Shown here: piece after piece, positions 2,468 to 49,812 of the stretch
Layout of the letters: every line of letters starts with the position of its first letter
How positions within the stretch are numbered: the stretch's first letter is position 1
IMG/VR virus record: IMGVR_UViG_3300030116_002442
Origin: an uncultured virus (IMG/VR IMGVR_UViG_3300030116_002442)
Lineage: Duplodnaviria; Heunggongvirae; Uroviricota; Caudoviricetes
Direction: 5' to 3' (one strand)
DNA length: 64,000 bases
Notes under the pieces: model-generated
Databases searched by the model: none
What the model was told of the DNA's origin: nothing
The model's input: only the letters and a program-made list of their open reading frames with translations
Program-made: the position numbers and the translations under genes

Positions 2468-2864
2468 ATCTGTGTATTAAATTTCTTTTTGGTATATTTA
2501 TTTCTTCAGCTAAACTATCTAAATCAAAACCCATTTTATAATCAGTAAATATATTTACATCACATATATACAAAAAAGGATTCTTAAGTAACTTATAACG
2601 TATATAAGCTTCTATAGAATCCACTTGTTTGTAAGTTCTATTATCAACATCATTGTTTTTAAAAGATTTTACATAAGCTATTCTTATGAAATCATCTCCA
2701 TAAAAACAATCATTTTTATCAAATTTGTTAGATATAGTCGTGAGAGTACCGTCTAAATTAATAACATCCCACTTGCCAGGTAATTTAGATAATTGACTCG
2801 CTAAACTTGATTTTACATCATCAAGGTATATAGCGGCTAAGGTTAAATATTGAGGCCTTTTCAT
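2427..2864 (-). CDS. hypothetical protein
   Basis: 145-aa ORF co-oriented with neighbours. Confidence 0.6.
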   Translation of the reverse strand: MKRPQYLTLAAIYLDDVKSSLASQLSKLPGKWDVINLDGTLTTISNKFDKNDCFYGDDFIRIAYVKSFKNNDVDNRTYKQVDSIEAYIRYKLLKNPFLYICDVNIFTDYKMGFDLDSLAEEINIPKRNLIHRCEDEFKIPPYEQK

Positions 2865-2937
2865 AATATGGACCTTAATATCTTAATTTTTTTATAAAAA
2901 AACATATAAAATAAGTCATTTTATTAACAAATAGCTG

Positions 2938-3222
2938 TTAATTACGCTTTTTTCCCCTGTTTCTAGCTCTATTTTTACTTTGAGCCTCTAAAATAAGAGA
3001 ACCTCCACGTACATGTGACATATCTTTTTTATCACCTTTTTTGCTATTTTTATTCTTTTTGTTGGCTTTATTTAAGGCAGCTCTATATTTTTTTCTTAAA
3101 GCTGAACTGTGGTATTTTTTATCGTAAGTCTTTTTTTTGTTTCTAGATTTTTTATTTTTAGCATAAAACTTTGCCGTCTTAGACTTACCATTTCTTTTTC
3201 CCGCTAATGAATTTCTTGCCAT
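2938..3222 (-). CDS. small, highly basic protein
   Basis: Very Lys/Arg-rich; C-terminal DMSH...NRARN may be a degenerate HNH-like remnant. Confidence 0.65.
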   Translation of the reverse strand: MARNSLAGKRNGKSKTAKFYAKNKKSRNKKKTYDKKYHSSALRKKYRAALNKANKKNKNSKKGDKKDMSHVRGGSLILEAQSKNRARNRGKKRN

Positions 3223-3224
3223 AA

Positions 3225-3506
3225 CTAATCATGTTGTACTATACCTCCGTACATTCTTTTTACTTTTTTCTTTTTCTTTTTTTTGTATCTACTTACCCTA
3301 CCTTTAGATTTTTTTTCTTTTTTTGCAGCTGCTTTTTCTGATGGACTTAACTCACTCCATGTACTAGGTGTTTTTTTTGACACTTTTTTTGTAGGTCTAA
3401 ATGTACTTTCACCACCACTATAATCTTTTTTACCAGAAGGTGTTCTCCAGTCTTCTTTAAACCAACGCTTAAGAGCTAATCCTTTTTTTGTTTTACGTAC
3501 AGCCAT
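3225..3506 (-). CDS. small basic phage protein (LKRWFKEDW type); ends GGIVQHD
   Basis: Start moved to MAVRK at 3506, abutting the upstream stop codon. Confidence 0.7.
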   Translation of the reverse strand: MAVRKTKKGLALKRWFKEDWRTPSGKKDYSGGESTFRPTKKVSKKTPSTWSELSPSEKAAAKKEKKSKGRVSRYKKKKKKKVKRMYGGIVQHD

Positions 3507-3697
3507 TAATCCTTTTGATATTTCATTAAACAACAAATCTTACCACCATGTGCCATTTTCTTTTTCTTTTTTCCACCTGTACCCCAATTCTTAGCGCCTT
3601 TTTTTCTGCATTTTGCTAATGCACCACTTGCGTATGCAGATGGCCACACTTTATACCTTGCTTTAACCTTATGATAACATGCATCTTTTTTTGCCAT
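3506..3697 (-). CDS. small basic phage protein (WPSAYASG type); ends YQKD
   Basis: Start moved to MAKKD at 3697; tightly packed with neighbours. Confidence 0.7.
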   Translation of the reverse strand: MAKKDACYHKVKARYKVWPSAYASGALAKCRKKGAKNWGTGGKKKKKMAHGGKICCLMKYQKD

Positions 3698-3699
3698 AA

Positions 3700-4002
3700 T
3701 TAATCGTATTGTGTAGGTACAACGCAACCACTAGCGCAGTTCCATTTCCTAAGTGATTTATTTATTCTAGAATTAGGGTCTCTACGTTTTTTAGAACCTG
3801 TTAATTTTCTTTTCATACCTTTCATTCTAGCACAAAAAGATTTTCTTCTAGATTTTCTTTTTCCTTTTGGGTTTTTTTCTGTAACAGGAGCAGCTAGTTT
3901 ACTACCTGGATTAGCTTTTCTATATGAAGCTCTACCTTTAGCATTTAGACCACCTGATTTATTTTTTCCTTCTTTACGTTGCCAAGCTGGTGATTTAGCC
4001 AT
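3700..4002 (-). CDS. small basic phage protein (GGLNAKGR...SFCARM type); ends TQYD
   Basis: Motifs recalled from a widespread family of small basic phage proteins. Confidence 0.7.
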   Translation of the reverse strand: MAKSPAWQRKEGKNKSGGLNAKGRASYRKANPGSKLAAPVTEKNPKGKRKSRRKSFCARMKGMKRKLTGSKKRRDPNSRINKSLRKWNCASGCVVPTQYD

Positions 4003-4004
4003 AA

Positions 4005-4391
4005 CTATTTACTTTTACCATTTTTAAGTTTTTCGATGGACCTTCCACCAAAATAACTCCCCACGATTGTAATCAAAACAATTTGTAACAAATCAGTCCA
4101 TTTGTCTTCAACATGAAAATCTACCGCACCTGCATCTATAAAAATTAATATCATAGTGCAACCTAATACAAATATAAGAGTCATCGGCCTCACATTCTTA
4201 CTCAACCAGCTATCAGATGACATGTCTGCCTTCCACCTATCTGTTACATTCTTTTGTAGTTCTGCTTCTGAATTCAAAAGCATTTGTTTCATTTCATTTT
4301 TTAATCTTATTTTCTCTTCTTTTGTAGTTACAACATTATCTATAATGTTACCTGCATCACCTACTAATGATTTTAATACGTTCTTTAACAT
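4005..4391 (-). CDS. holin (3TM/GTA-type holin-like)
   Basis: SDSWLSKNVRP, two hydrophobic helices, YFGGRS; adjacent to endolysin. Confidence 0.75.
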   Translation of the reverse strand: MLKNVLKSLVGDAGNIIDNVVTTKEEKIRLKNEMKQMLLNSEAELQKNVTDRWKADMSSDSWLSKNVRPMTLIFVLGCTMILIFIDAGAVDFHVEDKWTDLLQIVLITIVGSYFGGRSIEKLKNGKSK

Positions 4392-4393
4392 AA

Positions 4394-5002
4394 TTATATA
4401 TTTAAATCTTTACTATCTAACAAAGTATATGTAAAACTATTACCCCATTTATCTCTAGCCACTCTACATATATCCATAAATTCATGCCAGTCATCGTTAG
4501 CTGCAATTACTTGACAACCTGCTGACCACTTATCTACTTGTTTAGACTTCTTTCCTCCCCATTTTGTAGCTCTATGTATGTTTATACCAAACAATCCAGT
4601 TTGTGTATTATCGTCGCTTAAATCAAACTTATCGTCCTTATTAGCGTCTCTATATACAGTTACAGGACCATTTTGCCCTAAAGCCTCATACCTACCTTGA
4701 TGTAATCTAATTTTATGAGAACCTCTGTATTGGCCTTCTTTTAAAACAGCAACACCTTCCTTTCTCATTATATTCTCAACCCAATACCTTCCTGGGTCTG
4801 TTGTGCAATCATAACAATAGAATTCCCATTGCCCATCACACTTAAATGATATTGTTATTTTATCATCAAATTTATTTGTCACTTCTGTGCCCGTATTTGA
4901 ATTACGAACACCTACTATATTAAGATTATAGTCACCTTTCTCAAACCATCTAAACCCCTTTGACTTCACACCTTGTTCTATTATATCTTTAGTTAATTTC
5001 AT
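4394..5002 (-). CDS. putative endolysin, L,D-transpeptidase (YkuD)-like catalytic motif
   Basis: GINIHRA...WSAGCQV (His...SxGC); next to holin. Confidence 0.7.
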   Translation of the reverse strand: MKLTKDIIEQGVKSKGFRWFEKGDYNLNIVGVRNSNTGTEVTNKFDDKITISFKCDGQWEFYCYDCTTDPGRYWVENIMRKEGVAVLKEGQYRGSHKIRLHQGRYEALGQNGPVTVYRDANKDDKFDLSDDNTQTGLFGINIHRATKWGGKKSKQVDKWSAGCQVIAANDDWHEFMDICRVARDKWGNSFTYTLLDSKDLNI

Positions 5003-5244
5003 TGCACTTCTATTGTTTTACTATTTAATTTTATTTCAATTTCTGAATTACTAGAAACTGATGTACTTTTTTTATTATTTAATATAACTGGATTGTTAGT
5101 GTCTACAGTTATACGAGGTTTATTGTTTTTTATTTCTATTTGCGCAGAACTATGCACAATTACGTTAGGGTTAGTGGGGTGTAAATTTATAGTAACCTCA
5201 CAAGTATTCGCATTTAATATATCAACCTCTTCATTATAAGCCAT
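4999..5244 (-). CDS. hypothetical protein
   Basis: Overlaps neighbours in the operon. Confidence 0.55.
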   Translation of the reverse strand: MAYNEEVDILNANTCEVTINLHPTNPNVIVHSSAQIEIKNNKPRITVDTNNPVILNNKKSTSVSSNSEIEIKLNSKTIEVQ

Positions 5245-5692
5245 AATTTGTTGCGTTTGTATAAGGCTGTATATCTTCTACAATAAAATCACCATACAAC
5301 CAAACGGTTTGAGCACCCGATTCATTGGCAGCTGCAGCAAGTTCTGATTTTTTAGATATTAAAGTATATTTATAACGACCAGCATCAACAGCAAATGGTT
5401 GTCCATAAGCTTGCCATTCTACAGTTATTTTACCATCTTCTACTGTACATTCAAGAGCGTTATTTGCTGGCACAGGGTTTCCCAGTTCCCAGTTTTGAAT
5501 CAAACCTTGTCCATCTGCTCCATACACTTCAAATTTTGCAAAATCTGGGTCCGTGTTATCATTAGGGTTACTAGTAAAATCATAATTAGTTCCATCAGCG
5601 TTTTTAATATTAACCACAAGTTTAAAATGACTACCTTTTATATGCTTAATTCTAAGCTTTTGTGCTGGATGTGAAACTAATGTATTTGCCAT
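5234..5692 (-). CDS. beta-rich hypothetical protein, possibly structural (BppU-N-like)
   Basis: KGSHFKLVVNIKNADGTNYDF...GRYKYTL...WLYGDFIV pattern. Confidence 0.5.
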   Translation of the reverse strand: MANTLVSHPAQKLRIKHIKGSHFKLVVNIKNADGTNYDFTSNPNDNTDPDFAKFEVYGADGQGLIQNWELGNPVPANNALECTVEDGKITVEWQAYGQPFAVDAGRYKYTLISKKSELAAAANESGAQTVWLYGDFIVEDIQPYTNATNYGL

Positions 5693-6093
5693 TATTGAAA
5701 TTTATTTAATGTCAATGTATCTACTGAATTCTGTATTGTTTTTTTATCTGCATCTAATTGGAACATTACGTTTGGTTTGAACCTTTCTTTTTCCTCACCG
5801 TTATCAAAAATAATAACAGTCGGAATGGCAGAGATATCATAATCCATTTGAATATCCATATGAGCAGAAATATCAATTCTATATACCACACAGTCTTTTA
5901 ATTTTACAAGCTCTTTAAATTCATTGTGAGCATTCCATCCTGCCCAAAATTCTACCACTACTATGTCTTTAGCTATTTTATTATTAAAATTATTAGAAGT
6001 AACAAAGTCTTGACTAAAAGTAGTTCCACAAATAAACATAAACACCATCAATAAGATGTATAAGTATGATGATATGTCTATTCTGTGAATCAT
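5692..6093 (-). CDS. exported/membrane-anchored thioredoxin-fold protein lacking CxxC
   Basis: VVVEFWAGWN at the WCxxC position; ISAIPTVIIFDNGEEKERF; N-terminal hydrophobic segment. Confidence 0.75.
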   Translation of the reverse strand: MIHRIDISSYLYILLMVFMFICGTTFSQDFVTSNNFNNKIAKDIVVVEFWAGWNAHNEFKELVKLKDCVVYRIDISAHMDIQMDYDISAIPTVIIFDNGEEKERFKPNVMFQLDADKKTIQNSVDTLTLNKFQ

Positions 6094-6434
6094 TTTTTAA
6101 GCTCTTTTATATCTTCTTTAAGTTCATCTAATTCTTTTATTATATTATCAATTTTCTGTCGAGCCATTTCATCTTTCATATTAAACTCCATTCTTGTTGG
6201 AGGCCAAGTCTGTGAAGCAGCGGGGTCACCCATATCTATTGTATATGTTCCTGTGCCTGGCTTTGGTTTTTCTAAAGCCTCTTCTACTTTATCTTCTAAT
6301 TCTACAAACTTAGAGTTTATACTACCCATTAAACCAAAGTATGCAGACACAACAGTAGCTATACCCACACCTATACCTATTAGTGTTTTAACACTAATTT
6401 GAAACTTGCTTTCTTCTGATAGTTCTTTAGCCAT
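6090..6434 (-). CDS. single-TM protein with coiled-coil C-terminus
   Basis: LIGIGVGIATVVSAYFGLM TM segment; heptad-like C-terminus. Confidence 0.65.
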   Translation of the reverse strand: MAKELSEESKFQISVKTLIGIGVGIATVVSAYFGLMGSINSKFVELEDKVEEALEKPKPGTGTYTIDMGDPAASQTWPPTRMEFNMKDEMARQKIDNIIKELDELKEDIKELKK

Positions 6435-6727
6435 TAATCGTATTGTATTATACCACCTTTTTTAAATCTACCAACCACACCGCCTTTTTTGTAACCAAAA
6501 GATTGTTTAAACATTTTGTCTACACCTTCTTTTTCTTCACCCTTAACTATTCTTTTTCCCTCAGGCCCTTTAAATTTGGTTCTTTTTTTACTTACAGTTA
6601 CCTCTGTTCCTGGACCTAATTCAGTGTCATTTATAACATAACTTTTTTTACCAAACAAACTTTTAATAGTTTGTTTTATAGCACGTCTTTTTAACTTTCT
6701 ATCTTGTTTTTTACTTAATTCACTCAT
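6434..6727 (-). CDS. small basic protein with KKGG motifs; ends GGIIQYD
   Basis: ORF in operon; YKKGG and FKKGG. Confidence 0.65.
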   Translation of the reverse strand: MSELSKKQDRKLKRRAIKQTIKSLFGKKSYVINDTELGPGTEVTVSKKRTKFKGPEGKRIVKGEEKEGVDKMFKQSFGYKKGGVVGRFKKGGIIQYD

Positions 6728-6963
6728 TATTTAGGGCAGTCTTTACATTTGCTTTTTCCAGAAAACTTTTCTATACCACTTATACCAAAGCATCCTAATA
6801 CAACCCACACAAATGAATCATAAACAAATTCGTTAATTACTAAATCTGAACCAGCAGCGCCAGTTACTAAATCAATTATCATTACGATAACCATAATAAG
6901 AAAAGCTATAAATCCTACTATAGACTTTTCGTTCCAGTCATTACTGTCTTTAAATATATTCAT
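6727..6963 (-). CDS. two-TM membrane protein (holin-like)
   Basis: Two hydrophobic helices, FGISGIEKF, charged C-tail. Confidence 0.6.
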   Translation of the reverse strand: MNIFKDSNDWNEKSIVGFIAFLIMVIVMIIDLVTGAAGSDLVINEFVYDSFVWVVLGCFGISGIEKFSGKSKCKDCPK

Positions 6964-6973
6964 ATTTTAAAAT

Positions 6974-7282
6974 TTAATCGTATTGTTGTGTAAAAGCATC
7001 TCTTACCTTTCCTCCGTACTTCATTTCTATTTTACCACCGTATGCTTTCTTTTTTGACTTTTTCTTTTTTTCACTAGGTTTTTCAAGACCAAACTTTTCG
7101 TAGTAATCTCTACCTAAAGATTGAGGATTTTCACCTGAATAAGTTTTTTTAGCTTTTTTTGTTTGAGGTATATACCCACCTTCATCATACATTTTCATTT
7201 TTCCGCCATAACCCATGTAACCCATTTTGTTTCTTACTTTTTCTGGTAACATTTTAAGACCTTTATTATTTGGTTTTTTCAT
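6974..7282 (-). CDS. small basic protein with four xxGG motifs; ends TQQYD
   Basis: MGYGGK, YDEGGY, AYGGK, MKYGGK. Confidence 0.65.
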   Translation of the reverse strand: MKKPNNKGLKMLPEKVRNKMGYMGYGGKMKMYDEGGYIPQTKKAKKTYSGENPQSLGRDYYEKFGLEKPSEKKKKSKKKAYGGKIEMKYGGKVRDAFTQQYD

Positions 7283-7285
7283 CTT

Positions 7286-8020
7286 TTAATTTATTTTATA
7301 TTTAACTACACCATCTTGGATATACAAACCCTCTGGCTCTTTTATTGCTTGCCCCAACAAATTAAAAATTCTGTTATCTGCTTTTGATTTATTTAATAAC
7401 TCAGGTATATTAGATGTACAAGGAAGTCCTGTGTCACAATCTAAATACTCTGTGTTTATAATTTCTACATACTCTATAATAGTATCTGTAGTAAAAAATT
7501 CTATGTATTCTGTTTCTATTTGCACTATGGTATCAAAAATAAACACATCTACATACTCTATAACATCTACAAATAAAGTGTCTAATACATCTTCATATAT
7601 AGTTAATGTATCTGTTATGTATATATATTCAGGAATAAATGTTTCTACTTCTACTGTATCTATTACAATTTGAGTTATATATTCTATATCATATATAGTG
7701 TCCGTTTGAAATATTGTTTCGTATATGTAAATAGGAATATCTACATAGACCGTATCACACTCCTCAAATGGTCCAGCGCACTCCTCAAGCGTTGTAGGTA
7801 CCGCGTCTTGCTCATCTGAAGCATCCACACAATCTTCCCACCCATCATTAAGGTAGTAAAGCCCATTAAGACCATTAGGAACGCAACCATTAGGACTATA
7901 CTGAGTCCAATTAGAAGTATCATCTCCACAATAAAATCCACCTTGTTCCACACATTCTTCACAATTCGTTTGACTAAATCCATAACCAAATACAAATAAT
8001 AATATTAATAATTTCTTCAT
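7286..8020 (-). CDS. secreted protein: Cys-rich LDLa-like head, DT-repeat stalk, T9SS CTD-like tail
   Basis: Signal peptide MKKLLILLFVFGYGFSQ; NDGWEDCVDASDE; repeated DT[VIL]; IFNLLGQ...GLYIQDG...K tail. Confidence 0.65.
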   Translation of the reverse strand: MKKLLILLFVFGYGFSQTNCEECVEQGGFYCGDDTSNWTQYSPNGCVPNGLNGLYYLNDGWEDCVDASDEQDAVPTTLEECAGPFEECDTVYVDIPIYIYETIFQTDTIYDIEYITQIVIDTVEVETFIPEYIYITDTLTIYEDVLDTLFVDVIEYVDVFIFDTIVQIETEYIEFFTTDTIIEYVEIINTEYLDCDTGLPCTSNIPELLNKSKADNRIFNLLGQAIKEPEGLYIQDGVVKYKIN

Positions 8021-8021
8021 A

Positions 8022-9095
8022 TTACAAAAATAAGTAATTTATTCCAACCTTAAATTCATAAACAGGTCTCATCCAAAATCTTTGATGAGTTCCTTCTAAA
8101 AACAAACCTAAGTTTTTTGAAAACTTAACACCAAAAACTAAACCAGCGTCCCATTCTACAGTGGCTGGTATGCTCTCCCCTTTCCATTGGCTATCACTAT
8201 AGTCAAAGCTATAATTATCGAGGCCCACGTGGTAGGGTAGAACATTCATCCAGCCATGTAACCACCAGTTTGAGTACCACTTATAATAAGCAACGCCTAA
8301 TACAGCAGATAGTTCTTTTTGCAATCCTAACTTGCGCAATTCACTATCATTATAATCATCTATAGCGTTACCAAAATGGTACCTCATAAACTCTCCTGTT
8401 GTGTGAGCTACTTGTATAGAATCTCCACTAGATATATCATACCAGTCATAATTCACATATCCAGCTTGACTCCATTGTTCACTTACATAACCAAAATCTT
8501 CTGCAATTTCAGAAAATGGTGTTACAGCTGGGTCCCAAAAATCATTTATAGGCAAATACCCATAAACTGGGTGCATTCTAAATGCAGCTCCTACAGAAAA
8601 ATCAAAATTTCCCATAGTTTTTCGCCATCTTACATCAGATAGCATATACTTTAAATCAAACTTTTGATTGTCTACAAATTGACCTTTAATAAGGTACGAA
8701 TCACTCAAATAACGTAAGAAATAATCCTGATTTATAAACTCATTCCCTCTATCTCGTACTAAAGAAATATTAGCAAGGTACTCAAAGCCTTTAGCGTTAC
8801 CTATAGGAGCTTTATTTGCTATTTGTGACTCTGTGCCATCATAAAAGGTTTTAACCTTATATTCATAATCAAAACGCGCCACCTTGCGTAAACCTATAGT
8901 ATAATTATAATCAAAAGGATTAACTTCAGTTATATCCAATAATACTTTATCTTCTATTTTATACATACCATCTTCTAAAGTAGAAGAGCTCATAGAGCTT
9001 GATACATAAAATGTAGAGTATTTAAAAAAGTTTTTAATTTCTTGAGCATTAACCACAGAACATAGCAATACTAATATAGCTAATAAACTTTTCAT
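8022..9095 (-). CDS. putative outer-membrane beta-barrel protein
   Basis: Signal peptide ending VNA-Q; alternating aromatic/hydrophobic strands; C-terminal YEFKVGINYLFL. Confidence 0.6.
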   Translation of the reverse strand: MKSLLAILVLLCSVVNAQEIKNFFKYSTFYVSSSMSSSTLEDGMYKIEDKVLLDITEVNPFDYNYTIGLRKVARFDYEYKVKTFYDGTESQIANKAPIGNAKGFEYLANISLVRDRGNEFINQDYFLRYLSDSYLIKGQFVDNQKFDLKYMLSDVRWRKTMGNFDFSVGAAFRMHPVYGYLPINDFWDPAVTPFSEIAEDFGYVSEQWSQAGYVNYDWYDISSGDSIQVAHTTGEFMRYHFGNAIDDYNDSELRKLGLQKELSAVLGVAYYKWYSNWWLHGWMNVLPYHVGLDNYSFDYSDSQWKGESIPATVEWDAGLVFGVKFSKNLGLFLEGTHQRFWMRPVYEFKVGINYLFL

Positions 9096-9097
9096 AT

Positions 9098-9487
9098 CTA
9101 TTGTCCTACTGGTTTAGCTTTTAAATAACAAATAATTGTACTGTTTCCTGTTTTATTAGTTACCTTTTTCCATCTACCCTCTATAGTAACACCAGCGGGA
9201 ACTTGTAAATCATCAAATTTTGTTCCTACACCCCCTGAATCTGCCCCAAAATCTGTTTCTGCAGAAGCAGCCCATGTTCCACCAGCTGGCGTTAAATTAC
9301 CAGTCCATCTAGTGTTTACAGGTGTTAATTCTAATTGAGAACCAGCACCACCACTTGCAGTTCCTAAAATTGTTATAGCTACCACTTCATGTGTAGCTGT
9401 TGCAGTAGATAAATCTAAACTTACATCTGAGCTATCTTTATGTAAAGCCACACTACCATCATATATACTTGTTTTTATTCCAGGCAT
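9098..9487 (-). CDS. hypothetical virion protein
   Basis: G/T/A-rich beta protein; VPAGVTIEGRW. Confidence 0.55.
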   Translation of the reverse strand: MPGIKTSIYDGSVALHKDSSDVSLDLSTATATHEVVAITILGTASGGAGSQLELTPVNTRWTGNLTPAGGTWAASAETDFGADSGGVGTKFDDLQVPAGVTIEGRWKKVTNKTGNSTIICYLKAKPVGQ

Positions 9488-9507
9488 AATTTTATTTTTT
9501 TATATTA

Positions 9508-9654
9508 TTATCTTCCTCCACCTCTTCTGCCAGCTCTTTTTACATAAGCCTTAGCAGTAACTTTACTAGCTTTTTTTGATTTACCAGCAGCCATTCTACT
9601 TTTACTTCTACTTGTTTTTCTTGAACCTCTTAGGTTTTCTAATAAACTACCCAT
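9508..9654 (-). CDS. 48-aa protamine-like basic protein (not in ORF track)
   Basis: MGSLLENLRGSRKTSRSKSRMAAGKSKKASKVTAKAYVKRAGRRGGGR*; fills the intergenic gap. Confidence 0.6.
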   Translation of the reverse strand: MGSLLENLRGSRKTSRSKSRMAAGKSKKASKVTAKAYVKRAGRRGGGR

Positions 9655-9672
9655 TATATTTTATTTTAATTA

Positions 9673-10098: not shown

Positions 10099-10116
10099 TT
10101 TATTTTTTTTTAATTA

Positions 10117-10602: not shown

Positions 10603-10625
10603 TATTATTTGGTTTAAATATTATA

Positions 10626-10633
10626 CAAATATA
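10626..10633 (-). promoter_or_regulatory. Bacteroidota sigma-A -7 element TATATTTG
   Basis: Exact TAnnTTTG in the intergenic gap upstream of 10602. Confidence 0.6.
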
Positions 10634-42889: not shown

Positions 42890-44332
42890 TTATGAATTAG
42901 ATAATATACCACAAGATAATGGGTTTCTTAAGATAATACCAGATTCAGAAAGAATTTGACATTCAAAGAAATCATCACCATTAGCAGCCATCATCGAATT
43001 GTAATCGTAAGGATTAACCATTCCAGGTACATATTTTTTAACAAAACTTCTGTTAAAACCTTCAGCACCTTTAGCAATTAACTCTACATTAGAAACACCA
43101 TTTTGCATTCCCATGTCTACAAATACCATTTTTCCTGATTCATTTGAAGTATCAAATGTAGAAGAAATAGAGTTATGTAAGTTAGGGTCATCAAATACTG
43201 GACAGTAAGCTAATATCATCTTGTTACCAAGAATATTGTATTCAGTGAAGTTTGCACCTAATGCAACATCACCTCCACCTTTACCAGCAAATACAGGAGT
43301 TCCAGAACCTAAAGTAACTAATAAGTCCTTCATAGCTCTATGGAAGTCAATTCTTCCTTGAGTTCCTGTAAACACAGTCCATACATTACCTTCAGCAGAT
43401 AAAGCATTTTTAGAAAGTGTTCCAATAAAGTTTACAATATCTTCTTCTGTTAATGCACCAGCAGTATAAGTAGCTTGGTTAGAAGAATCAATTTGTGCTA
43501 ATAGACCATCACCCATGATTGGTAATCCTGCAGTAAATGCACTAGGAGCGCCTATACCAGAGTCTCCAGGATAATCAGCTGCGTTAGCTGATGTTCCTAC
43601 AGATTTTTTACCATACCATCTTTGACATTCTAATTCGTACATAAATTGGTCAGTCATTTGTTGTTCTTTAGTAAAGTACCATAATCTATGACCATTAGAC
43701 TCAATCCAAGTAACATCAGTTAAATCAGTTCCCATAATTTTTGTTTTCTTACGAGATAGAGTTAACCAGTTCTTGTATGTATCTGGGTAAGCATAGTTTT
43801 GTCCTACCTCAGACGCTAATGAACCTTGATTAAAAGCATTACCAATAACACCAATAACATCACCAGCTGCTAATACGTCAGTTACAGAATCAATAGCTCT
43901 AAATGTAACAGTGTTAGACACGTCGCCAGTTCCAGCCCCTGGAGTTCCAGCGTCTGTTACCATTGCAGTTGCTCCCGAAGGAAATCTTACAACATCATTT
44001 ACATTTAAGTTATCTCCGTAAATTCCAGCAGCAGTACTGTGGTCTAAAATACAAGTAAATGTATCACCAGCATTTGTACCAGCCATTGTTTGAGTTTCGT
44101 TAGATAAAGATGGTTTTCTATATCTTCCCATCATTTTCCACTCAAAAGAGTAATCACCGATAATTTTTTCTGCAGCATTTCTACCTGCAGCTTCTAACAA
44201 ATATGTTAGAGAGAAACGTGGATATTGTTGAATAAGTTTTTTACCTATTTCTGGGTATTTTAGTAGGTTGGTCACTAACGCCGTTTCATCAGTAGTGTCT
44301 TTTCCATACGTACCCGTATAAACTTTTGCCAT
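42890..44332 (-). CDS. major capsid protein
   Basis: 480 aa after portal/scaffold; FEWKMMG, GDGLLAQI, VFTGTQG, FDDP motifs typical of crAss-like MCPs. Confidence 0.85.
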   Translation of the reverse strand: MAKVYTGTYGKDTTDETALVTNLLKYPEIGKKLIQQYPRFSLTYLLEAAGRNAAEKIIGDYSFEWKMMGRYRKPSLSNETQTMAGTNAGDTFTCILDHSTAAGIYGDNLNVNDVVRFPSGATAMVTDAGTPGAGTGDVSNTVTFRAIDSVTDVLAAGDVIGVIGNAFNQGSLASEVGQNYAYPDTYKNWLTLSRKKTKIMGTDLTDVTWIESNGHRLWYFTKEQQMTDQFMYELECQRWYGKKSVGTSANAADYPGDSGIGAPSAFTAGLPIMGDGLLAQIDSSNQATYTAGALTEEDIVNFIGTLSKNALSAEGNVWTVFTGTQGRIDFHRAMKDLLVTLGSGTPVFAGKGGGDVALGANFTEYNILGNKMILAYCPVFDDPNLHNSISSTFDTSNESGKMVFVDMGMQNGVSNVELIAKGAEGFNRSFVKKYVPGMVNPYDYNSMMAANGDDFFECQILSESGIILRNPLSCGILSNS

Positions 44333-44406
44333 TTTTTTAAAGTTTTAATTTGTTATACAATAATTTTATTTATTGCAACAAATAAAGTAGCATCGCTGTT
44401 TATTCA

Positions 44407-45414
44407 TTACTTCATGAACTCAGCAGGGTCAAAACCAGTTTTTGGTTTAAAATCTGCCTGCCGACTCCGTCTACCAAGGTCTGTGTTAGTAATCTTATTA
44501 ATTACAGAGGCTTTGCCTTTCTCCATCCCTTGACCATGTAGCATTTTAAAGATTTTGTCTTTGTATTTCCATAAAAAAGCAGCGTCGGCAACATTGGCCT
44601 CACTACTATATACGTCATCAGCAAAACCTCCTGATACTACATAGTTATATAATTCTCTTCTCTCTTTGTTTCCAATTTTTCCTCCAAAAAAGTCATCTTT
44701 ACTTTTTATATAATTTTGTAAAGTCTTTCTTGTGTTTAAATTTGCTTGTTCCCTTTCTTGTTTAGCTCTAGCTTGTTCGCTTTTAATTTTCTTTCTTTCT
44801 GTAGCAATATAACTTTGTAGATTTTTTCTAATCATCATAGCCTCTCTTTTTAAAAGACCAGAGTCTTGTAATCTTTCTACAGTATCATCTACTTCTTCTT
44901 TTGAAAGACCAGAGGCTTTTAAATCAGATGCAACTAAAGAAATGTCATTTTGTTTTAAAAACCCCTCTATATTCTCTATAGTATCATTACTAGGAGCGGG
45001 TGTTGACATTGCTTTTTTTACAGCACTTTTAAAGCTAGCTTCATCTTTAGCATCTAAATCTAATTCTTTTGCTAAAACTTGCCAATCAAAAGGAGTTTCA
45101 TTAGAAGACGTATCTTCTTTTTTATTAGGAACATAATCCCAATCTTCCTCTTCTTGTTTTGGCTCCTCTCCTTGTTCAGTTTCTACTTCTACGCTCCCCC
45201 AATCAAAATCTCCATCTTCATCTTCTTTTACTTCGTTTTGTTCTATTTCTGTATCATTTGAACTTATATTCTCGCTTTCTGAAAAAGCTTGTGGGTCAAA
45301 TGACGGAACCTCCTCTTCAGTAGAGGTTTCTTCCGATTTTACTTCTGTTTCTTGAACAACAGACTCCTCTGCTTGTTCTATTAGGCCTTCGCCTGATTTT
45401 TGTTCTTCATTCAT
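44407..45414 (-). CDS. scaffold-like protein
   Basis: Very acidic N-terminus, helical C-terminus, between portal and MCP. Confidence 0.65.
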   Translation of the reverse strand: MNEEQKSGEGLIEQAEESVVQETEVKSEETSTEEEVPSFDPQAFSESENISSNDTEIEQNEVKEDEDGDFDWGSVEVETEQGEEPKQEEEDWDYVPNKKEDTSSNETPFDWQVLAKELDLDAKDEASFKSAVKKAMSTPAPSNDTIENIEGFLKQNDISLVASDLKASGLSKEEVDDTVERLQDSGLLKREAMMIRKNLQSYIATERKKIKSEQARAKQEREQANLNTRKTLQNYIKSKDDFFGGKIGNKERRELYNYVVSGGFADDVYSSEANVADAAFLWKYKDKIFKMLHGQGMEKGKASVINKITNTDLGRRSRQADFKPKTGFDPAEFMK

Positions 45415-45442
45415 AATTTAAAATTTTGCTCTTTGCTTTGTA

Positions 45443-45450
45443 CAAAGATA
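45443..45450 (-). promoter_or_regulatory. Bacteroidota -7 element TATCTTTG upstream of scaffold/MCP
   Basis: Exact TAnnTTTG in the intergenic gap. Confidence 0.6.
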
Positions 45451-45454
45451 GTTA

Positions 45455-47809
45455 TTATTTTTTAGTTGTTTTCTGTTGATTTATTTTATTTCTTGTCGCA
45501 TCTCTTTCTTTCTTTTCTTTCTGTCTACGATTAGCATCAGACTCTTTACGCTTTTCTTCTCTATCTTTATTTGACTTATCTGTGTCGTGGTCTATTTTCA
45601 TTTTTTCTAGCTTTTCTTTATACTCAGATTGAACAGCCTCTCTTTGTATAGATGTTTTTAATTTATCACTAGAAATATTAGCCTCTAAGTCTGCTTGTAT
45701 TTGAGCAACTTCTATCTTACCTTTATTGCTTTCTTTAGCAACTTCTAGTCTAGATTGAGCATCCATTTGCTTCATACTAACCTCGTGTTGTCTAGCAACC
45801 TCAGCTTGTTCAGCCTGCATTTGCATAGCTTGTTGTTGCATTTGTTGAGTTTGTTGTGCTTGTTGTTGCATTTCTTTTAATCCATTTTCTAAAACATGTT
45901 CTGCTTCAGAAAGGCTATCAGATTTAAGTATTTTAATTACATCTAACAACCCAATATTTCCTCCTTGTAGCGCAGCTTGAGATAATTGTGTTATCGCTTG
46001 TTTTACAGCATCATCTTTAGCTCCTTCATTAACATATATACCATAATCATTTAATGCAATATCAGGGTTTATTTCTAATAATTTGTAACCACCATCTCCT
46101 AATATATATCCTGCTCTTTTTCCACCCACCCAAGATAGTTTCATTAAATTACAAACCTTTTCCATAACCCTTTTCTTTACTTCACTATGTTGAAAAAACC
46201 AACTTTCTGTAACTAAATTAGATTGCATTACAGTTCTTTGTACATTACCTACGGCTTCATATTGAGAAACAGCACCTTCTCTTTGTGGAGTAATACCACA
46301 AACTTGACCAGCTGTTTGTTCTAACATTAATTTAAGATTTATAAGTTGCTGTACAGAGTTTGATAAAGTAAAGTCTACTTGTCCAAATTGATTAAATCTA
46401 GCAGTATCAGCTCCTTCATCTCTAGAGTTTATAGGTATAATACCATCATTTTTTATATGATATAAAACTGTTTGCATATCCATACCTATATTAGAAGGCA
46501 TTTGTGATACATCATAAACTACTGCTTTACCACCCGCTCTTGATAATGTAAGTTCTATGTGATACATAACTACATTATATAAAGTTTGTATATGTTTTAA
46601 AACATCTACTAAACTATTTACTCTACCTGTAGACATATTATGCACGCATCCTACATAAGATAAAGAAGTTGGTCCTATATCGTCTACAGACCTTACTTGA
46701 TTTGGTCTTCTTCTACATCTAGTTACTATTCTACCACCTATCTTTGTTCCTTCCCAAATATCATCTACATATTTAGTTATAATCTCTTCATCTTTTCTTG
46801 CCTTATAATCATCTTTTACCATTTTTCTAAAAGGCGCATCTGGATTGTGTTTATTAGGAGAAACTTTGTATTTTACAGCTCTTATGGATTTCCATTCACC
46901 ATGTATAAGTCTTATTCTTACACCAGTAGAAGTATCATATTGCACCCACTCTATGTTTGTGTTGTAACTACCTAATTCAGTTCCAGAAGATATATGCCTC
47001 ATGTTTTCAAGCTCCATTACTTCTTTTTTACTTAACTCATCTCCATATTCGTCTAGTATTTCATTAACACTTAACCATCTTTGTTCTACAACCCATTGTG
47101 AGTTATCTAAATAGTCAGAGTCTATTGCTGTGTCAAAAGCAATGTTTCTAGGGTCTACTCTTCTAACATATGGGTCTCCATTTAATATTTCTGTTTTATA
47201 AAATACTTTACCTGTAACTAATAAATCTCTAAATCCACTTTTAAATAAATCTTTCCATCTATGTCTTTCCATTAAATAAGCTAAACCATCTTCTACAGAT
47301 TCTTCTACAGCCTCTTTATACGTATATCTCATGAAAGTCTCTATGTCATCAGGAATTTCTAAATCTGAATTATCTTGATTTATTTCCATTCCCATTACAT
47401 CATTTATCTCTTTCTTAATATCTACTAGCATTTTTTCCATTACCATAGATACTTTAGCGTCTTGTTTTCTATTAACTGCAGATTTATTAATAGAACTAAC
47501 TTTAGTCTCTAAAGGTCTTCTTAATTCTTCACTTGTCAACAAATCTATTTTAGGAGCAATTATATTGTAGTTTGTCATTCTAGCAGGAAAGGGCGTGCCA
47601 TATTGGTCAGTTACATATTCATAATCTTTTGGGTCAAAATGACCATGATAAGCTTGATAGTTTCTAATATCTTTATATCTATCGTTTATATATAAACTGT
47701 TATGGTGTTGAGCTATATATGGAGCCATAGCGTCCAAGTTTTGTTCACACCAATCTTTATTTTTCTTTTTGTCACTAAGCAATTGCCTAGGAAAATTTAC
47801 ATGCGGCAT
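45455..47809 (-). CDS. portal protein
   Basis: 784 aa after TerL; NYNIIAPKIDLL, FRDLLVTG, GITPQREG; Q-rich coiled-coil C-terminus. Confidence 0.9.
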   Translation of the reverse strand: MPHVNFPRQLLSDKKKNKDWCEQNLDAMAPYIAQHHNSLYINDRYKDIRNYQAYHGHFDPKDYEYVTDQYGTPFPARMTNYNIIAPKIDLLTSEELRRPLETKVSSINKSAVNRKQDAKVSMVMEKMLVDIKKEINDVMGMEINQDNSDLEIPDDIETFMRYTYKEAVEESVEDGLAYLMERHRWKDLFKSGFRDLLVTGKVFYKTEILNGDPYVRRVDPRNIAFDTAIDSDYLDNSQWVVEQRWLSVNEILDEYGDELSKKEVMELENMRHISSGTELGSYNTNIEWVQYDTSTGVRIRLIHGEWKSIRAVKYKVSPNKHNPDAPFRKMVKDDYKARKDEEIITKYVDDIWEGTKIGGRIVTRCRRRPNQVRSVDDIGPTSLSYVGCVHNMSTGRVNSLVDVLKHIQTLYNVVMYHIELTLSRAGGKAVVYDVSQMPSNIGMDMQTVLYHIKNDGIIPINSRDEGADTARFNQFGQVDFTLSNSVQQLINLKLMLEQTAGQVCGITPQREGAVSQYEAVGNVQRTVMQSNLVTESWFFQHSEVKKRVMEKVCNLMKLSWVGGKRAGYILGDGGYKLLEINPDIALNDYGIYVNEGAKDDAVKQAITQLSQAALQGGNIGLLDVIKILKSDSLSEAEHVLENGLKEMQQQAQQTQQMQQQAMQMQAEQAEVARQHEVSMKQMDAQSRLEVAKESNKGKIEVAQIQADLEANISSDKLKTSIQREAVQSEYKEKLEKMKIDHDTDKSNKDREEKRKESDANRRQKEKKERDATRNKINQQKTTKK

Positions 47810-47812
47810 ATC

Positions 47813-49633
47813 TTAATTTTTAAATGGAATTAATCTACCACCTTCCTTTTTGTAGTAAACAAATCCCAAAGTTTCACCCTTTGCTTCTTTTTCTCTTGCC
47901 TGTAATTGAAATACATCAATATTATGAATTAAACACAATCCAAAAGCTATAGCCCTATCCGTGTTTCTTGTTCCATAATCAGACAACTCATTTAACAATT
48001 CTATGAACCATATATCATCAACATTTGTTTTAATATAATCGTCCATGTACTGCTCCATAACGGCCTTGGTTTGTTTATTCATTTGTAAACCATATCTATT
48101 TCTAGTTAAGGTACCAGGCGCGTGTGCAGTTTTGGGTTTTTCTTTCATATATTTAAGAGCTTTATTTCTCTTAAAATAATCTATTATCCCAATTCTTGTA
48201 TACTCTATGAGCATTTTAGCATTATAATATACAGCTAATTTTAAACATCCATCCCAGAATTCTTCTGCTGTTTTAGGTCTTTCTGTATACTCAGCAATAA
48301 TATAATCACTTGGTATTTCAGTAGAAACAAATCTTCTGTATATCAAAGCGCTTCCCATAGAAGCTGTAGATTCTGCAGTATCTTGGTCATAAGAATCAAT
48401 ACCACCAATGTCTAAATTATCATATTCTAACATTGGATGTTCTAATATTTTATACGGACCATTTTTATCTGCTATCCATTCTACATTATCAGTAAATCCA
48501 TCTTCATCATCAAACACCCATTCCAATCTACCATGTTGTATTTGATTTTGAAATTTAGTGTGACTCATTATTCTGCCTCTTTGAGCGTTAATAAGTGATA
48601 AATCAAATCTACTTCCTTTAGTCTTTAAAAATGCTTCCTCTACTGTTAGAGGGTAGTTTTGTATATGTAAATTATAAGCTTTACTATTATCTCTACCTTC
48701 TAGCTTTTCTCTTTCTTTTAACAACTCTTTTCTTGCGCCCACTTCGTCACTTTCTCCAGTTTTTAAATCAAAAAAACCATAATAACATACAGAAGCAGGT
48801 ATAAATAAAGGAATTAAATTAAATGAATCTGCATTGTAATACATTTCCATAAAATCTTTAGATGAGGTTTCTATATCACCACCCGTTCCTCCAATTACAG
48901 GAACTCCAAATTGTATATTACCATCCATAAAACAAGCTTTTGATGACATATAAGCATTTAGCAACTCCTTGAACTCACCAGCTTCTTCAAATATCATTAC
49001 ACTTAAACGTTCACCTTTAAAAACTTCTGGATTAGACATTGTTCTACAATGTATAGCAGATTGATAACCTCCTATATTCCATTTACCATCTTTTGTTTTT
49101 TGTTTATATCCACTTTTAACCACATCCGAAGTATCTTTCAATACTGAATGTTTAAAGTTATTATGCTGTGCATTTAAACCTTTTTTCACTTTGTCAAAGA
49201 ACGAATCTGCAGTAACTTGTAATCCTGCAGCTATTCCTACCTCATTATAAGGATAGAATGTGTATTCGTGAGCACATAATGCAGAATTCATATAACTAAA
49301 ACCTTTATCTCTGGCTTTTATTACAATCATTCCCTTTTGCTCATCTTTACATTGCTCAAAGGTATCAAAATATAGTTTATCTAAATCTCTATACCACGGA
49401 GCAATTAAAGTTTTTCTGTTTCCAGATTCTTCTCCACTATTACCTAAAATTCTATAAAAATTTAAGTAATAATAATGCTTTCCTGTTATCTTATCCATTC
49501 CCTTTGGCTTGTAGCCATTCTTACACCTATGTATTTGCTCTTCCCAATACTCTTGATAAGAAACTGACTCTGGGTCTAAATCGGGTATACCCTCATAGAC
49601 TATAGGAGCATATTTCTTTATGTTCTTAGACAT
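47813..49633 (-). CDS. terL: terminase large subunit
   Basis: KARDKGFS Walker A, IFEEAG Walker B, GGTGG, GIDSYD nuclease motif, NTDRAIAFG. Confidence 0.92.
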   Translation of the reverse strand: MSKNIKKYAPIVYEGIPDLDPESVSYQEYWEEQIHRCKNGYKPKGMDKITGKHYYYLNFYRILGNSGEESGNRKTLIAPWYRDLDKLYFDTFEQCKDEQKGMIVIKARDKGFSYMNSALCAHEYTFYPYNEVGIAAGLQVTADSFFDKVKKGLNAQHNNFKHSVLKDTSDVVKSGYKQKTKDGKWNIGGYQSAIHCRTMSNPEVFKGERLSVMIFEEAGEFKELLNAYMSSKACFMDGNIQFGVPVIGGTGGDIETSSKDFMEMYYNADSFNLIPLFIPASVCYYGFFDLKTGESDEVGARKELLKEREKLEGRDNSKAYNLHIQNYPLTVEEAFLKTKGSRFDLSLINAQRGRIMSHTKFQNQIQHGRLEWVFDDEDGFTDNVEWIADKNGPYKILEHPMLEYDNLDIGGIDSYDQDTAESTASMGSALIYRRFVSTEIPSDYIIAEYTERPKTAEEFWDGCLKLAVYYNAKMLIEYTRIGIIDYFKRNKALKYMKEKPKTAHAPGTLTRNRYGLQMNKQTKAVMEQYMDDYIKTNVDDIWFIELLNELSDYGTRNTDRAIAFGLCLIHNIDVFQLQAREKEAKGETLGFVYYKKEGGRLIPFKN

Positions 49634-49635
49634 AT

Positions 49636-49812
49636 TTAATCTTTTTGTCCCTCTATTGCTTTTTTCTCTTCTGGTAACCTTGCTTCACTTAATTTACCAC
49701 CTACTTTAAAAAATGTTTCCATTCTTTTTTTATGTGCTTTTAACTTATCTTCTTCTATAAAATTATCTCCGTCTCTAACGTACTTAGTACCATTTATTTT
49801 TATCTTATTCAT
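49636..49812 (-). CDS. 58-aa protein (not in ORF track); FKVGGKL motif, ends GQKD
   Basis: MNKIKINGTKYVRDGDNFIEEDKLKAHKKRMETFFKVGGKLSEARLPEEKKAIEGQKD*; ATGA overlap with the upstream gene. Confidence 0.65.
   Translation of the reverse strand: MNKIKINGTKYVRDGDNFIEEDKLKAHKKRMETFFKVGGKLSEARLPEEKKAIEGQKD

What the first reader, a model, noticed from the sequence alone, without database searches (positions are those of the whole stretch)
3225..7282. Shared C-terminal Q-x-D tag, usually after an x-x-G-G motif, on seven late proteins: candidate virion-cargo signal
Seen: otherwise dissimilar - strand proteins end in GGIVQHD (3225), GGKICCLMKYQKD (3506), SGCVVPTQYD (3700), GGIIQYD (6434) and GGKVRDAFTQQYD (6974). 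Outside this span, the unlisted ORF 49636-49812 has FKVGGKL and ends GQKD, and the ejection protein 22664-24550 ends EQKD. None of the complete + strand genes called here ends in QxD. Three copies share the same DNA (+ strand TTAATCGTATTGT at 3700, 6434, 6974). Inference: a C-terminal sorting or processing signal that loads basic proteins and an ejection protein into the head, analogous in purpose to the T4 capsid targeting sequence. A degron, or a nucleic-acid motif overlapping stop codons, are alternatives.
Basis: partly seen in the sequence, partly recalled or inferred. Interest (0 to 1): 0.8.

Follow-up and report, generated by a model that had tools for sequence, protein, structure and literature searches.

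The report
C-terminal tag on crass-like phage proteins
A group of uncultured marine crAss-like phages attaches the same short end-piece (Gly-Gly, two greasy residues, then Gln-x-Asp) to dozens of unrelated small, positively charged late proteins, which looks like an address label for loading them into the virus particle, although that use has not been shown.

Summary
Seven of 69 called ORFs in the window end in Q-x-D, against an expected rate of 0.0024 per ORF (p = 4e-10).

- **Real members:** six of the seven. These are the five small basic proteins at 3225-7282 and the 58-aa ORF at 49636-49812, whose tail is kept in five relatives.
- **Coincidence:** the 628-aa protein at 22664-24550. None of its 9 orthologues ends in QxD.
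- **Peptide signal, not DNA:** synonymous codons and all three stop codons vary. The motif is strictly terminal, 22 terminal against 0 internal in 206,240 residues.
- **Spread:** 105 distinct ORFs in 35 unrelated core clusters carry it. All lie in one marine crAss-like clade and all on the structural strand.
- **Modularity:** the same cargo cores in other phage backbones lack the tail or carry a different Gly-Gly-hinged tail.

My best reading, at confidence 0.45, is a portable docking tag read by a phage-encoded morphogenesis partner. It would work like the T4 capsid targeting sequence or an encapsulin cargo peptide. Virion loading itself is untested.

The parts
3225..3506 (-). 93-aa lysine-rich protein matching the C-terminal half of DUF5872. 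Tail ...RMYGGIVQHD; the tag codons are 3228-3248.
   Evidence: Pfam DUF5872, 46 bits against a cutoff of 27.5. The tail is seen. Orthologues in G001, G002, G009, G012 and G014 keep a GG..Q[HY]D tail. Synonymous codon differences outnumber non-synonymous ones, 26-31 against 9-20.
3506..3697 (-). 63-aa basic protein (phrog_727 positions 266-311). Tail ...HGGKICCLMKYQKD. Its stop overlaps the next gene's ATG (TAATG).
   Evidence: PHROG hits; tail. Eleven distinct tagged members of this family were found. Synonymous differences 18-25 against 1-2 non-synonymous versus G009, G012 and G014.
3700..4002 (-). 100-aa DUF6321 protein. The tail ASGCVVPTQYD is added after the family's normal end, RKWNC.
   Evidence: Pfam DUF6321, 73.5 bits against a cutoff of 28.5. 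In alignment A6, 7 of 7 members from QxD-type phages carry a tail after W.C, and 6 of 6 members from other backbones stop at W.C. tblastn hits in 534 phage records mostly end near query residue 89. Residues 91-100 of the AF2 model have pLDDT below 50 and no secondary structure.
6434..6727 (-). 97-aa basic orphan protein. Tail ...YKKGGVVGRFKKGGIIQYD, with two Gly-Gly units.
   Evidence: The family alignment A3 keeps the terminal Q and D in 7 of 7 sequences. No Pfam match; one weak PHROG match, phrog_1338, E = 0.0048.
6974..7282 (-). 102-aa basic orphan protein. Tail ...YGGKVRDAFTQQYD, with several internal Y/M-G-G units.
   Evidence: The RD.F[TS]QQYD tail variant recurs on other cores in L001, L002, L004, L005, L094, L095 and G011.
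49636..49812 (-). Conserved 58-aa protein directly upstream of the large terminase gene. Ends FKVGGKL-(14 residues)-GQKD.
   Evidence: Homologues in G009, G011, G012, G013 and G014 sit in the same position and all end Q[KRN]D, with a Gly-Gly 18-19 residues upstream. No homologous ORF was called in G001.
42890..49633 (-). Head-assembly genes that are candidate receptors for the tag. This role is inferred, not shown. They are TerL 47813-49633, portal 45455-47809, scaffold-like 44407-45414 and major capsid protein 42890-44332.
   Evidence: PHROG and Pfam: TerL phrog_6681, portal phrog_6547, Crass_capsid PF23898. In relatives G006, G007, G008 and G010 the tagged genes lie at the head of this operon, just upstream of TerL.

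Best explanation
The window is essentially the genome of an uncultured marine crAss-like podovirus.

Six of its late genes end in a portable C-terminal peptide. It has a basic or aromatic lead-in, a Gly-Gly hinge and two hydrophobic residues. A 1-14 residue insert sometimes follows. It ends in Gln-(His/Tyr/Lys)-Asp with a free carboxylate.

I read this as a docking tag. The flexible tail would bind a clade-specific, phage-encoded morphogenesis protein, such as the capsid inner face, the scaffold or the portal. Binding would load an interchangeable set of small lysine-rich proteins into the procapsid, from where they would travel with the DNA into the host.

Shown here:
- The tag exists and acts at the peptide level.
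- It is strictly terminal.
- It is spread over unrelated cores.
- It is confined to late genes.
- Its type follows the phage backbone.

Inferred:
- That it binds a phage partner.
- That the result is virion loading.
- Whether the tail is later cut off at the Gly-Gly.
For: 1. **Enrichment.** Seven of 69 window ORFs end in QxD against 0.0024 expected. Across 12 tag-bearing genomes or contigs, 54 of 786 ORFs are tagged. Two phages of other backbones, G003 and G004, have 0 of 170.
2. **Peptide-level signal.** Among 44 distinct tail DNAs:
   - Asp codons: GAT 35, GAC 9.
   - His codons: CAC 10, CAT 6.
   - Tyr codons: TAC 9, TAT 7.
   - Stop codons: TAA 37, TAG 5, TGA 2.
3. **Strictly terminal.** GG-hydrophobic-hydrophobic-(K/R)?-Q[HYK]D occurs 22 times at C-termini and 0 times internally in 206,240 residues.
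4. **Modular.**
   - 105 distinct tagged ORFs fall into 35 core clusters.
   - Only 2 of 30 cluster representatives hit a Pfam family, and 3 of 30 a PHROG.
5. **Tail type follows the backbone.**
   - Five of 5 further tag-bearing contigs have a portal 53-76% identical to the window's.
   - The DUF5872-type core is 81-89% identical in L069, L041 and L057, yet there it ends ...GG.VQGCGCPYGMQ.GPNNVL. Those contigs have a portal only about 27% identical.
   - DUF6321: 7 of 7 members from QxD phages carry the tail, and 6 of 6 from other phages stop at W.C.
6. **Late, head-linked genes.**
   - 54 of 54 tagged genes lie on the structural strand, against 450 of 732 untagged.
   - In G006, G007, G008 and G010 they sit directly upstream of TerL, portal, scaffold and MCP.
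   - DUF6321 genes sit next to capsid genes in a pelagiphage and a Prochlorococcus podophage.
7. **Cargo-like properties.**
   - Median length is 90 aa.
   - Median net charge is +0.21 per residue, against -0.007 for untagged small proteins on the same strand.
   - The tail of the DUF6321 model is unstructured.
8. **Precedent.**
   - T4 internal proteins are diverse and share only a capsid targeting sequence (PMC3012670, passages read).
   - P1 DarB has an N-terminal capsid signal (PMC9024508, passages read).
   - crAss001 stores cargo proteins in its capsid, and one of them contacts the portal (PMC10172136, passages read).
9. **Not a host feature.** A scan of 185,579 bacterial and archaeal genomes gave 22 single scattered hits and no tagged gene arrays.
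Against: - There is no virion proteomics for this uncultured clade, so presence in particles is unproven.
- No receptor has been identified.
- In the window, five of the six tagged genes lie among lysis and envelope genes (holin 4005-4391, endolysin-like 4394-5002), not among head genes. A lysis-related role is therefore not excluded.
- Thirty-nine small proteins on the structural strand with net charge above 0.15 per residue have no tag. One of them is 2938-3222.
- The DUF5872-type protein of G006 and G010 carries a different tail inside a QxD-type genome. The tag is therefore neither necessary for all basic proteins nor perfectly tied to the backbone.
- Counts across genomes include orthologues and are not independent.
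- The scan selected for the canonical tag, which biases the consensus.
Confidence: 0.45

Rival explanations
1. The tail is a maturation or processing signal. A protease would cut at or after the Gly-Gly and remove the tail, and perhaps also cut at the internal Gly-Gly units, to activate or release the basic proteins. This could be a later step of the loading model or could stand alone.
For: - A Gly-Gly pair precedes nearly every tail. Gly occupies position -7 in 62 and position -6 in 52 of 105 tagged ORFs.
- Gly-Gly units are 18 times denser in tagged proteins: 1.62 against 0.089 per 100 aa.
- Three different tail types in three backbones all follow a basic-Gly-Gly hinge.
- From recall, not from a call: T4 removes its targeting sequence by proteolysis, and adenovirus protease cuts its basic core-protein precursors at sites containing Gly-Gly.
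Against: - No protease family was found by Pfam or PHROGs among the 47 window proteins submitted.
- Cleavage alone does not explain the invariant terminal Gln and Asp.
- It also does not explain why the motif must be at the very end.
Confidence: 0.15
2. The tail is a self-association or co-condensation motif. The short Gly-Gly-hydrophobic-Gln strand would let different tagged proteins stick to each other, for example on DNA, without a dedicated receptor.
For: - Tandem Gly-Gly-hydrophobic units occur in many tails, for example KKGGVVGRFKKGGIIQYD.
- Up to seven tagged proteins occur per genome.
- The proteins are strongly basic.
Against: - A strict need for the C-terminal position and a terminal Asp fits a pocket that reads a free carboxylate better than strand stacking.
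- Some clade members have only one tagged protein: G008 has 1, and L094 and L095 show 1 each in the region examined.
Confidence: 0.1
3. The tail serves a lysis or envelope function, a host-factor interaction, or stability. The cationic proteins might act at the envelope after the holin fires. Alternatively the polar or acidic end might protect disordered basic proteins from host proteases that read C-termini.
For: - In the window the tagged genes flank the holin, an endolysin-like gene, a thioredoxin-domain gene and other unassigned ORFs.
- From recall: the nature of the last residues affects protein stability in bacteria.
Against: - In G006, G007, G008 and G010 the tagged genes are in the head operon, not next to lysis genes.
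- Phages sharing an endolysin 64-95% identical, and so probably infecting related hosts, use different tails. This argues against a host reader.
- A generic protective cap would not need an invariant Gln at -3 and the Gly-Gly-hydrophobic lead-in.
Confidence: 0.1
4. The signal is a nucleic-acid motif that overlaps the stop codons, for example for translational coupling, or it is plain chance.
For: - Three window copies share a 13-mer.
- Most tagged genes are followed within 0-10 nt by the next start codon.
Against: - Synonymous codons and all three stop codons vary while the peptide is kept.
- The conserved Gly-Gly-hydrophobic part lies at variable distance upstream of the end.
- Untagged genes in the window are packed just as tightly.
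- The chance probability is 4e-10.
Confidence: 0.02

Closest known systems
T4 capsid targeting sequence on internal proteins IPI, IPII and IPIII (PMC3012670, passages read; PMC9024508, passages read)
   Same: A short conserved terminal peptide is the only thing shared by a diverse, fast-changing set of small proteins that contact DNA through lysines. The review cited describes the T-even internal proteins as having only the targeting sequence conserved.
   Different: - The T4 signal is N-terminal, directs proteins to the scaffolding core, and is removed by the prohead protease.
- Here the tag is C-terminal and no protease gene was found.
- Loading is not shown, and the phage is a crAss-like podovirus.
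Encapsulin cargo-loading peptides (search listing and abstracts only)
   Same: A short C-terminal peptide attached to otherwise unrelated cargo, read by the inside of an HK97-fold shell. The window's capsid protein is of that fold class (Crass_capsid).
   Different: - I did not compare the sequence with encapsulin peptides.
- Encapsulins are cellular compartments without DNA.
- Binding to the capsid protein is not shown here.
P1 DarB N-terminal capsid signal, and the HK97 protease C-terminal targeting region (the HK97 case is recalled and was not read here)
   Same: Terminal peptides that suffice to put a protein into a phage head. The HK97 case, as I recall it, is C-terminal.
   Different: Each is known on one protein or one system, not on dozens of unrelated families. 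There is no sequence resemblance that I could test.
crAss001 cargo proteins (PMC10172136, passages read)
   Same: Same viral order. Proteins are stored with the DNA and ejected, and one cargo protein contacts the portal wing.
   Different: The crAss001 cargos named in the passages read (gp45, gp46, gp47, gp49, gp50) include three annotated as RNA polymerase-related. Those passages describe no shared terminal tag and no small basic proteins.
Pfam DUF6321 and DUF5872 small phage proteins
   Same: Two of the tagged cores are members of these families.
   Different: - Family members outside this clade lack the tail.
- The families have no known function. One literature search found one unrelated paper.

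Membership tests
Crassvirales (crAss-like phages) | Crassvirus-type major capsid, portal, muzzle and ring proteins | tested here: met
   - Pfam Crass_capsid: 109.7 bits against a cutoff of 27.
- crAss_MUZ: 419 bits.
- CrAss_Ring_1: 116 bits.
- CrAss_Ring_2: 60 bits (all).
- Portal: phrog_6547, E = 9e-122.
- The capsid protein is 25-27% identical to those of gut crAss-like phages.
Pfam DUF6321 | Score above the curated cutoff over the whole domain | tested here: met
   3700-4002 scores 73.5 bits against a cutoff of 28.5, covering profile positions 1-72 of 72.
Pfam DUF5872 | Score above the curated cutoff | tested here: met
   3225-3536 scores 46 bits against a cutoff of 27.5, but covers only profile positions 48-114 of 116. 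The neighbouring 3506-3697 protein gave no Pfam hit.
T4-type capsid targeting sequence system | A short terminal peptide shared by otherwise unrelated proteins | tested here: met
   35 core clusters share the tail.
T4-type capsid targeting sequence system | N-terminal position and removal by a prohead protease | tested here: not met
   The tag is strictly C-terminal. No protease family was found among the window proteins.
T4-type capsid targeting sequence system | Tagged proteins are present in the procapsid or virion, and the tag suffices to load a foreign protein | not testable with these tools
   The clade is uncultured. The nearest cultured phages share about 25-27% capsid identity.
Encapsulin-type cargo-loading peptide | C-terminal peptide on cargo | tested here: met
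Encapsulin-type cargo-loading peptide | The peptide binds the inner face of the HK97-fold shell protein | not testable with these tools
   Binding cannot be established with the tools available here. It needs a peptide-binding assay or a co-assembly experiment.
Protease sites at Gly-Gly (adenovirus or ubiquitin-like type; features recalled) | A cognate cysteine protease is encoded, and cleavage occurs after Gly-Gly | tested here: inconclusive
   The Gly-Gly is present. No protease domain was detected. Many window proteins have no family assignment.

The most novel reading that the evidence does not exclude
Marine crassviruses use Gly-Gly-hinged C-terminal address peptides that are specific to each phage backbone. 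In this clade the address is Gly-Gly-hydrophobic-hydrophobic-Gln-x-Asp. The peptide would load a rapidly exchanged arsenal of small basic proteins into the capsid for co-injection. This would be a phage counterpart of encapsulin cargo peptides. When a cargo gene moves between phages, its tail would be swapped to match the new capsid. The tag would then be a ready-made handle for packaging foreign proteins into crass-like particles.
Probability: 0.35. Interest if true: 0.8.

Novelty: new variant of a known kind. Interest (0 to 1): 0.65.

Why it matters
- **What loading would mean.** Crassviruses are among the most abundant phages, yet how they choose which proteins travel with the DNA is unknown. 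A short, transferable C-terminal label on at least 30 unrelated protein families would give a direct experimental handle. One could fuse it to a reporter, pull down its receptor, and list the injected proteins of uncultured phages from sequence alone.
- **Gene exchange between phages.** The tail swap on near-identical cargo cores in distantly related phages suggests that accessory genes move freely while their address label is re-fitted. That would be a simple rule for reading phage mosaicism.
- **If loading is not the function.** The tag still marks a large, undescribed class of phage small proteins that share one partner.

Tried and rejected
- **Complex prediction**. I submitted the capsid protein, the scaffold-like protein and the last 40 residues of 6434-6727. 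The verdict was no answer, score 0.00, and no controls were run. I draw nothing from it. The portal could not be tested because only one job was allowed.
- **Fold of the conserved 175-aa protein at 49809-50336**, which neighbours tagged genes. The model is all-helical with pLDDT 70, and Foldseek found no PDB match at E <= 0.001.
- **Fold search with the DUF6321 model** (pLDDT 65). No match.
- **Protein atlas look-up of 6974-7282.** It returned only unnamed viral clusters.
- **Promoter and terminator scan of 2400-10800.** Nothing above the shuffles: 39 promoter-like sites against a shuffle mean of 42.4.
- **Earlier-findings look-up.** Nothing on record.
- **Whole-genome file.** None is held for this window.
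- **Scan of bacterial and archaeal genomes for the tag.** It gave 22 scattered single hits. Ten lie in frame at an ORF end, eight of those ORFs are 36 aa or shorter, and none forms an array.
- **Literature.** No relevant paper holds the tail strings. DUF5872 and DUF6321 appear in one unrelated paper.

Readings rejected:
- Chance.
- A DNA-level motif.
- Membership of the 628-aa protein.
- The idea that 3506-3697 plus 3225-3506 is a split DUF5872 gene. Only the second half hits the Pfam model, so I do not claim this.

Full report
**What the window is.** The late genes run on the - strand. They include a crassvirus-type major capsid protein (42890-44332), portal (45455-47809), large terminase (47813-49633), ring proteins (37888-38547 and 38974-39726) and muzzle protein (31856-37888). 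All score well above the Pfam cutoffs or have strong PHROG hits. The capsid protein is only about 25-27% identical to those of gut crAss-like phages and Flavobacterium phage FpV4. A 62-kb IMG/VR contig (G001, estimated 94% complete) is collinear with the window and has a capsid protein 88% identical. The window is therefore close to a whole genome of an uncultured marine crAss-like phage.

**Checking the observation.** All seven tails are present as written. With ATG starts, the five clustered genes are 3225-3506, 3506-3697, 3700-4002, 6434-6727 and 6974-7282. The proteome composition gives an expected rate of 0.0024 for a Q-x-D end. Seven of 69 called ORFs gives p = 4e-10. None of the 19 + strand ORFs has such an end. 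The 13-mer shared by three genes is real, with 3 matches and none in 100 shuffles. It is simply the codons for QYD plus the stop.

**Which of the seven are real members.**
- The 628-aa protein at 22664-24550 has nine orthologues in related contigs, and none ends in Q-x-D. It is also one of only three Q-x-D ends, out of 108 distinct ones, that lack a Gly-Gly or Gly-Cys in the last 25 residues. I treat it as a coincidence.
- The 58-aa ORF at 49636-49812 has homologues in the same place, directly upstream of the terminase gene, in G009, G011, G012, G013 and G014. All of them end Q-[K/R/N]-D, with a Gly-Gly 18-19 residues upstream. I found no homologue in G001.
- The window therefore has six members.

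**Peptide or DNA signal.** Among 44 distinct tail-encoding DNAs from the window and its relatives:
- Asp is GAT 35 times and GAC 9 times.
- His is CAC 10 and CAT 6.
- Tyr is TAC 9 and TAT 7.
- The stop is TAA 37, TAG 5 and TGA 2.

The amino acids are kept while the bases vary, so the signal is in the peptide. The three family-assigned genes are under clear purifying selection. For example, 3506-3697 against G009 shows 25 synonymous and 1 non-synonymous codon differences.

**Shape of the tag.** I found 105 distinct tagged ORFs in the fetched DNA.
- Positions -3 and -1 are Gln and Asp by selection.
- Position -2 is His 56, Tyr 27, Lys 15 and Leu 5.
- Positions -7 and -6 are Gly in 62 and 52.
- Positions -5 and -4 are mostly Ile.
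- Position -10 is Tyr or Phe in 46.

Some tails carry an insert between the Gly-Gly-hydrophobic part and the end, for example ...GGKVRDAFTQQYD. The scan selected for the canonical form, so these frequencies are biased towards it.

In 206,240 residues of 12 tag-bearing genomes or contigs, the canonical motif occurs 22 times at C-termini and never internally. Gly-Gly-hydrophobic units are 18 times denser in tagged proteins. The AF2 model of the DUF6321 protein has a helical core, and its last ten residues have pLDDT below 50 and no secondary structure.

**How widely it occurs.**
- A search with the endolysin-like protein 4394-5002 gave 80 IMG/VR loci. Thirty-one of their 1300 + strand ORFs end in Q-x-D. 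Thirty of these lie in six loci (L001, L002, L004, L005, L006, L008) and one in L048.
- A search with 10117-10602 added four relatives. L093 has two tagged ORFs, L094 and L095 have one each, and L092 shows none in the short stretch examined.
- A pattern scan of IMG/VR for the canonical tag gave 37 stretches. I examined 26 new loci. Twenty-three are low-GC loci (0.31-0.37) with one to four small ORFs ending in the tag. L100 and L108 had none, and L124 is a high-GC chance hit.
- Five of five such contigs tested carry a portal 53-76% identical to the window's.
- Per genome or contig the count is 1 to 7.
- The same scan over one genome per bacterial and archaeal species gave 22 scattered single hits with no arrays.

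**Modularity.**
- With the tails stripped off, the 105 proteins fall into 35 blastp clusters.
- Of 30 cluster representatives, two hit a Pfam family (DUF6321 and DUF5872) and three hit a PHROG.
- DUF6321 is common in cyanophages and pelagiphages, with 534 records at up to 70% identity. Most alignments stop near residue 89 of the window protein, that is at RKWNC, before the tail.
- In alignment A6, 7 of 7 DUF6321 proteins from Q-x-D phages extend past W.C with a tail. Six of 6 from other phages stop there and instead have N-terminal extensions.
- The DUF5872-type core is 81-89% identical between the window and L069, L041 and L057. There it ends ...GG.VQGCGCPYGMQ.GPNNVL. Those contigs have a portal only about 27% identical to the window's.
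- A scan for that second tail found it in 25 contigs, on 20 distinct proteins with several different N-terminal cores. It always starts 16 residues from the end and occurs once per locus.
- A third tail...SYSYQDFLDL, follows a Gly-Gly on small basic proteins in G004-type phages, whose portal is 26% identical.
- In 13 of the 80 endolysin loci, arrays of small proteins instead share an N-terminal MAFKM-type start. No locus has both that start and Q-x-D ends.

**Context of the tagged genes.**
- All 54 tagged genes in the 12 genomes or contigs lie on the structural strand, against 450 of 732 untagged genes. These counts include orthologues.
- In G006, G007, G008 and G010 the tagged genes sit at the head of the operon that continues with terminase, portal, scaffold-like protein and capsid.
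- In the window, five tagged genes lie near the holin and the endolysin-like gene, and one lies upstream of the terminase.
- DUF6321 genes lie beside the capsid gene in Pelagibacter phage HTVC115P and Prochlorococcus phage P-SCSP1o. In cyanophage S-RIM8 the domain forms the C-terminal part of a 470-aa protein near the neck and terminase genes.

**Interpretation.** The pattern is:
- a free, flexible, strictly terminal peptide;
- on many unrelated, variable, lysine-rich late proteins;
- whose type follows the phage backbone and not the cargo or the lysis module.

That is what a docking tag read by a phage-encoded partner would look like. The closest documented parallel is the T4 capsid targeting sequence. 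[quoted passage not shown] P1 DarB has an N-terminal capsid signal (PMC9024508). crAss001 stores cargo in its capsid, and one cargo protein touches the portal wing (PMC10172136).

I put 0.45 on the loading reading, and about 0.6 on the broader claim that the tail docks to some phage-encoded partner.

**Evidence against, and exceptions.**
- There is no particle proteomics and no identified receptor.
- The window's tagged genes sit among lysis genes.
- Thirty-nine untagged small basic proteins lie on the structural strand.
- The DUF5872-type protein of G006 and G010 carries a different tail inside a Q-x-D genome.

**Novelty.** No relevant paper in the held library contains the tail strings. DUF5872 and DUF6321 appear in one unrelated paper. 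Terminal capsid-targeting peptides are a known kind. New here are a C-terminal tag spread over dozens of families in crassviruses, and parallel tail types in other backbones.

Noticed in passing
L003, L012, L016, L018, L019, L020 and other loci (for example L020:10612-17379): In phages of another backbone (G003 has no match to the window's capsid protein), arrays of small proteins start with a shared N-terminal motif, MAFKM.G[FW]S or MAY[IV]Q.NNPF. They include DUF5872 and DUF6321 homologues. There are up to 8 per locus, and they are never found together with Q-x-D tails. This may be an N-terminal counterpart of the tag.
   Followed up: partly
L199-L223; also L037, L040, L041, L056, L057, L069: A second C-terminal tail, GG.VQGCGCPYGM.MGPN..L, always starts 16 residues from the end. 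It occurs once per locus, on several different small basic cores. The contigs examined for portal have one about 27% identical to the window's, and several contigs are about 110-120 kb.
   Followed up: partly
L010, L014, L026 (G004:57193-57866): A third tail...GG[SA]N..SYSYQDFLDL, sits on one or two small basic proteins per locus in an 88-kb crAss-like phage type.
   Followed up: partly
Tagged ORFs in 12 genomes or contigs: Tagged proteins start with Met-Pro far more often than others: 16 of 54 against 31 of 732, Fisher p = 8e-9. The reason is unknown.
   Followed up: no
window 47813-49633 (C-terminus) and 44407-45414: The large terminase ends ...YYKKEGGRLIPFKN, a basic-Gly-Gly-hydrophobic end that resembles the tag's lead-in. 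It is kept in G006 but is Asn-Gly in G001 and G007. The scaffold-like protein has an invariant FFGGK. This may be a coincidence.
   Followed up: no
window 4394-5002: The endolysin-like protein is shared at 64-95% identity by phages of at least four different backbones. The lysis module therefore moves between phages far more freely than the head genes do.
   Followed up: partly
window 10655-22660: A 4001-aa ORF has no Pfam or PHROG hit. By its position after the muzzle and other large proteins it is probably an ejected giant protein. Homologous ORFs occur in G001 (3753 aa) and G002 (at least 3654 aa, cut by the contig end).
   Followed up: no
window 5692-6093, 7286-8020, 8022-9095: Next to the tagged genes lie a thioredoxin-domain protein with a hydrophobic N-terminus (Pfam) and two proteins with signal-peptide-like starts. 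One of these is 357 aa and ends ...YLFL like an outer-membrane barrel. The barrel reading is mine from the sequence and was not tested.
   Followed up: no
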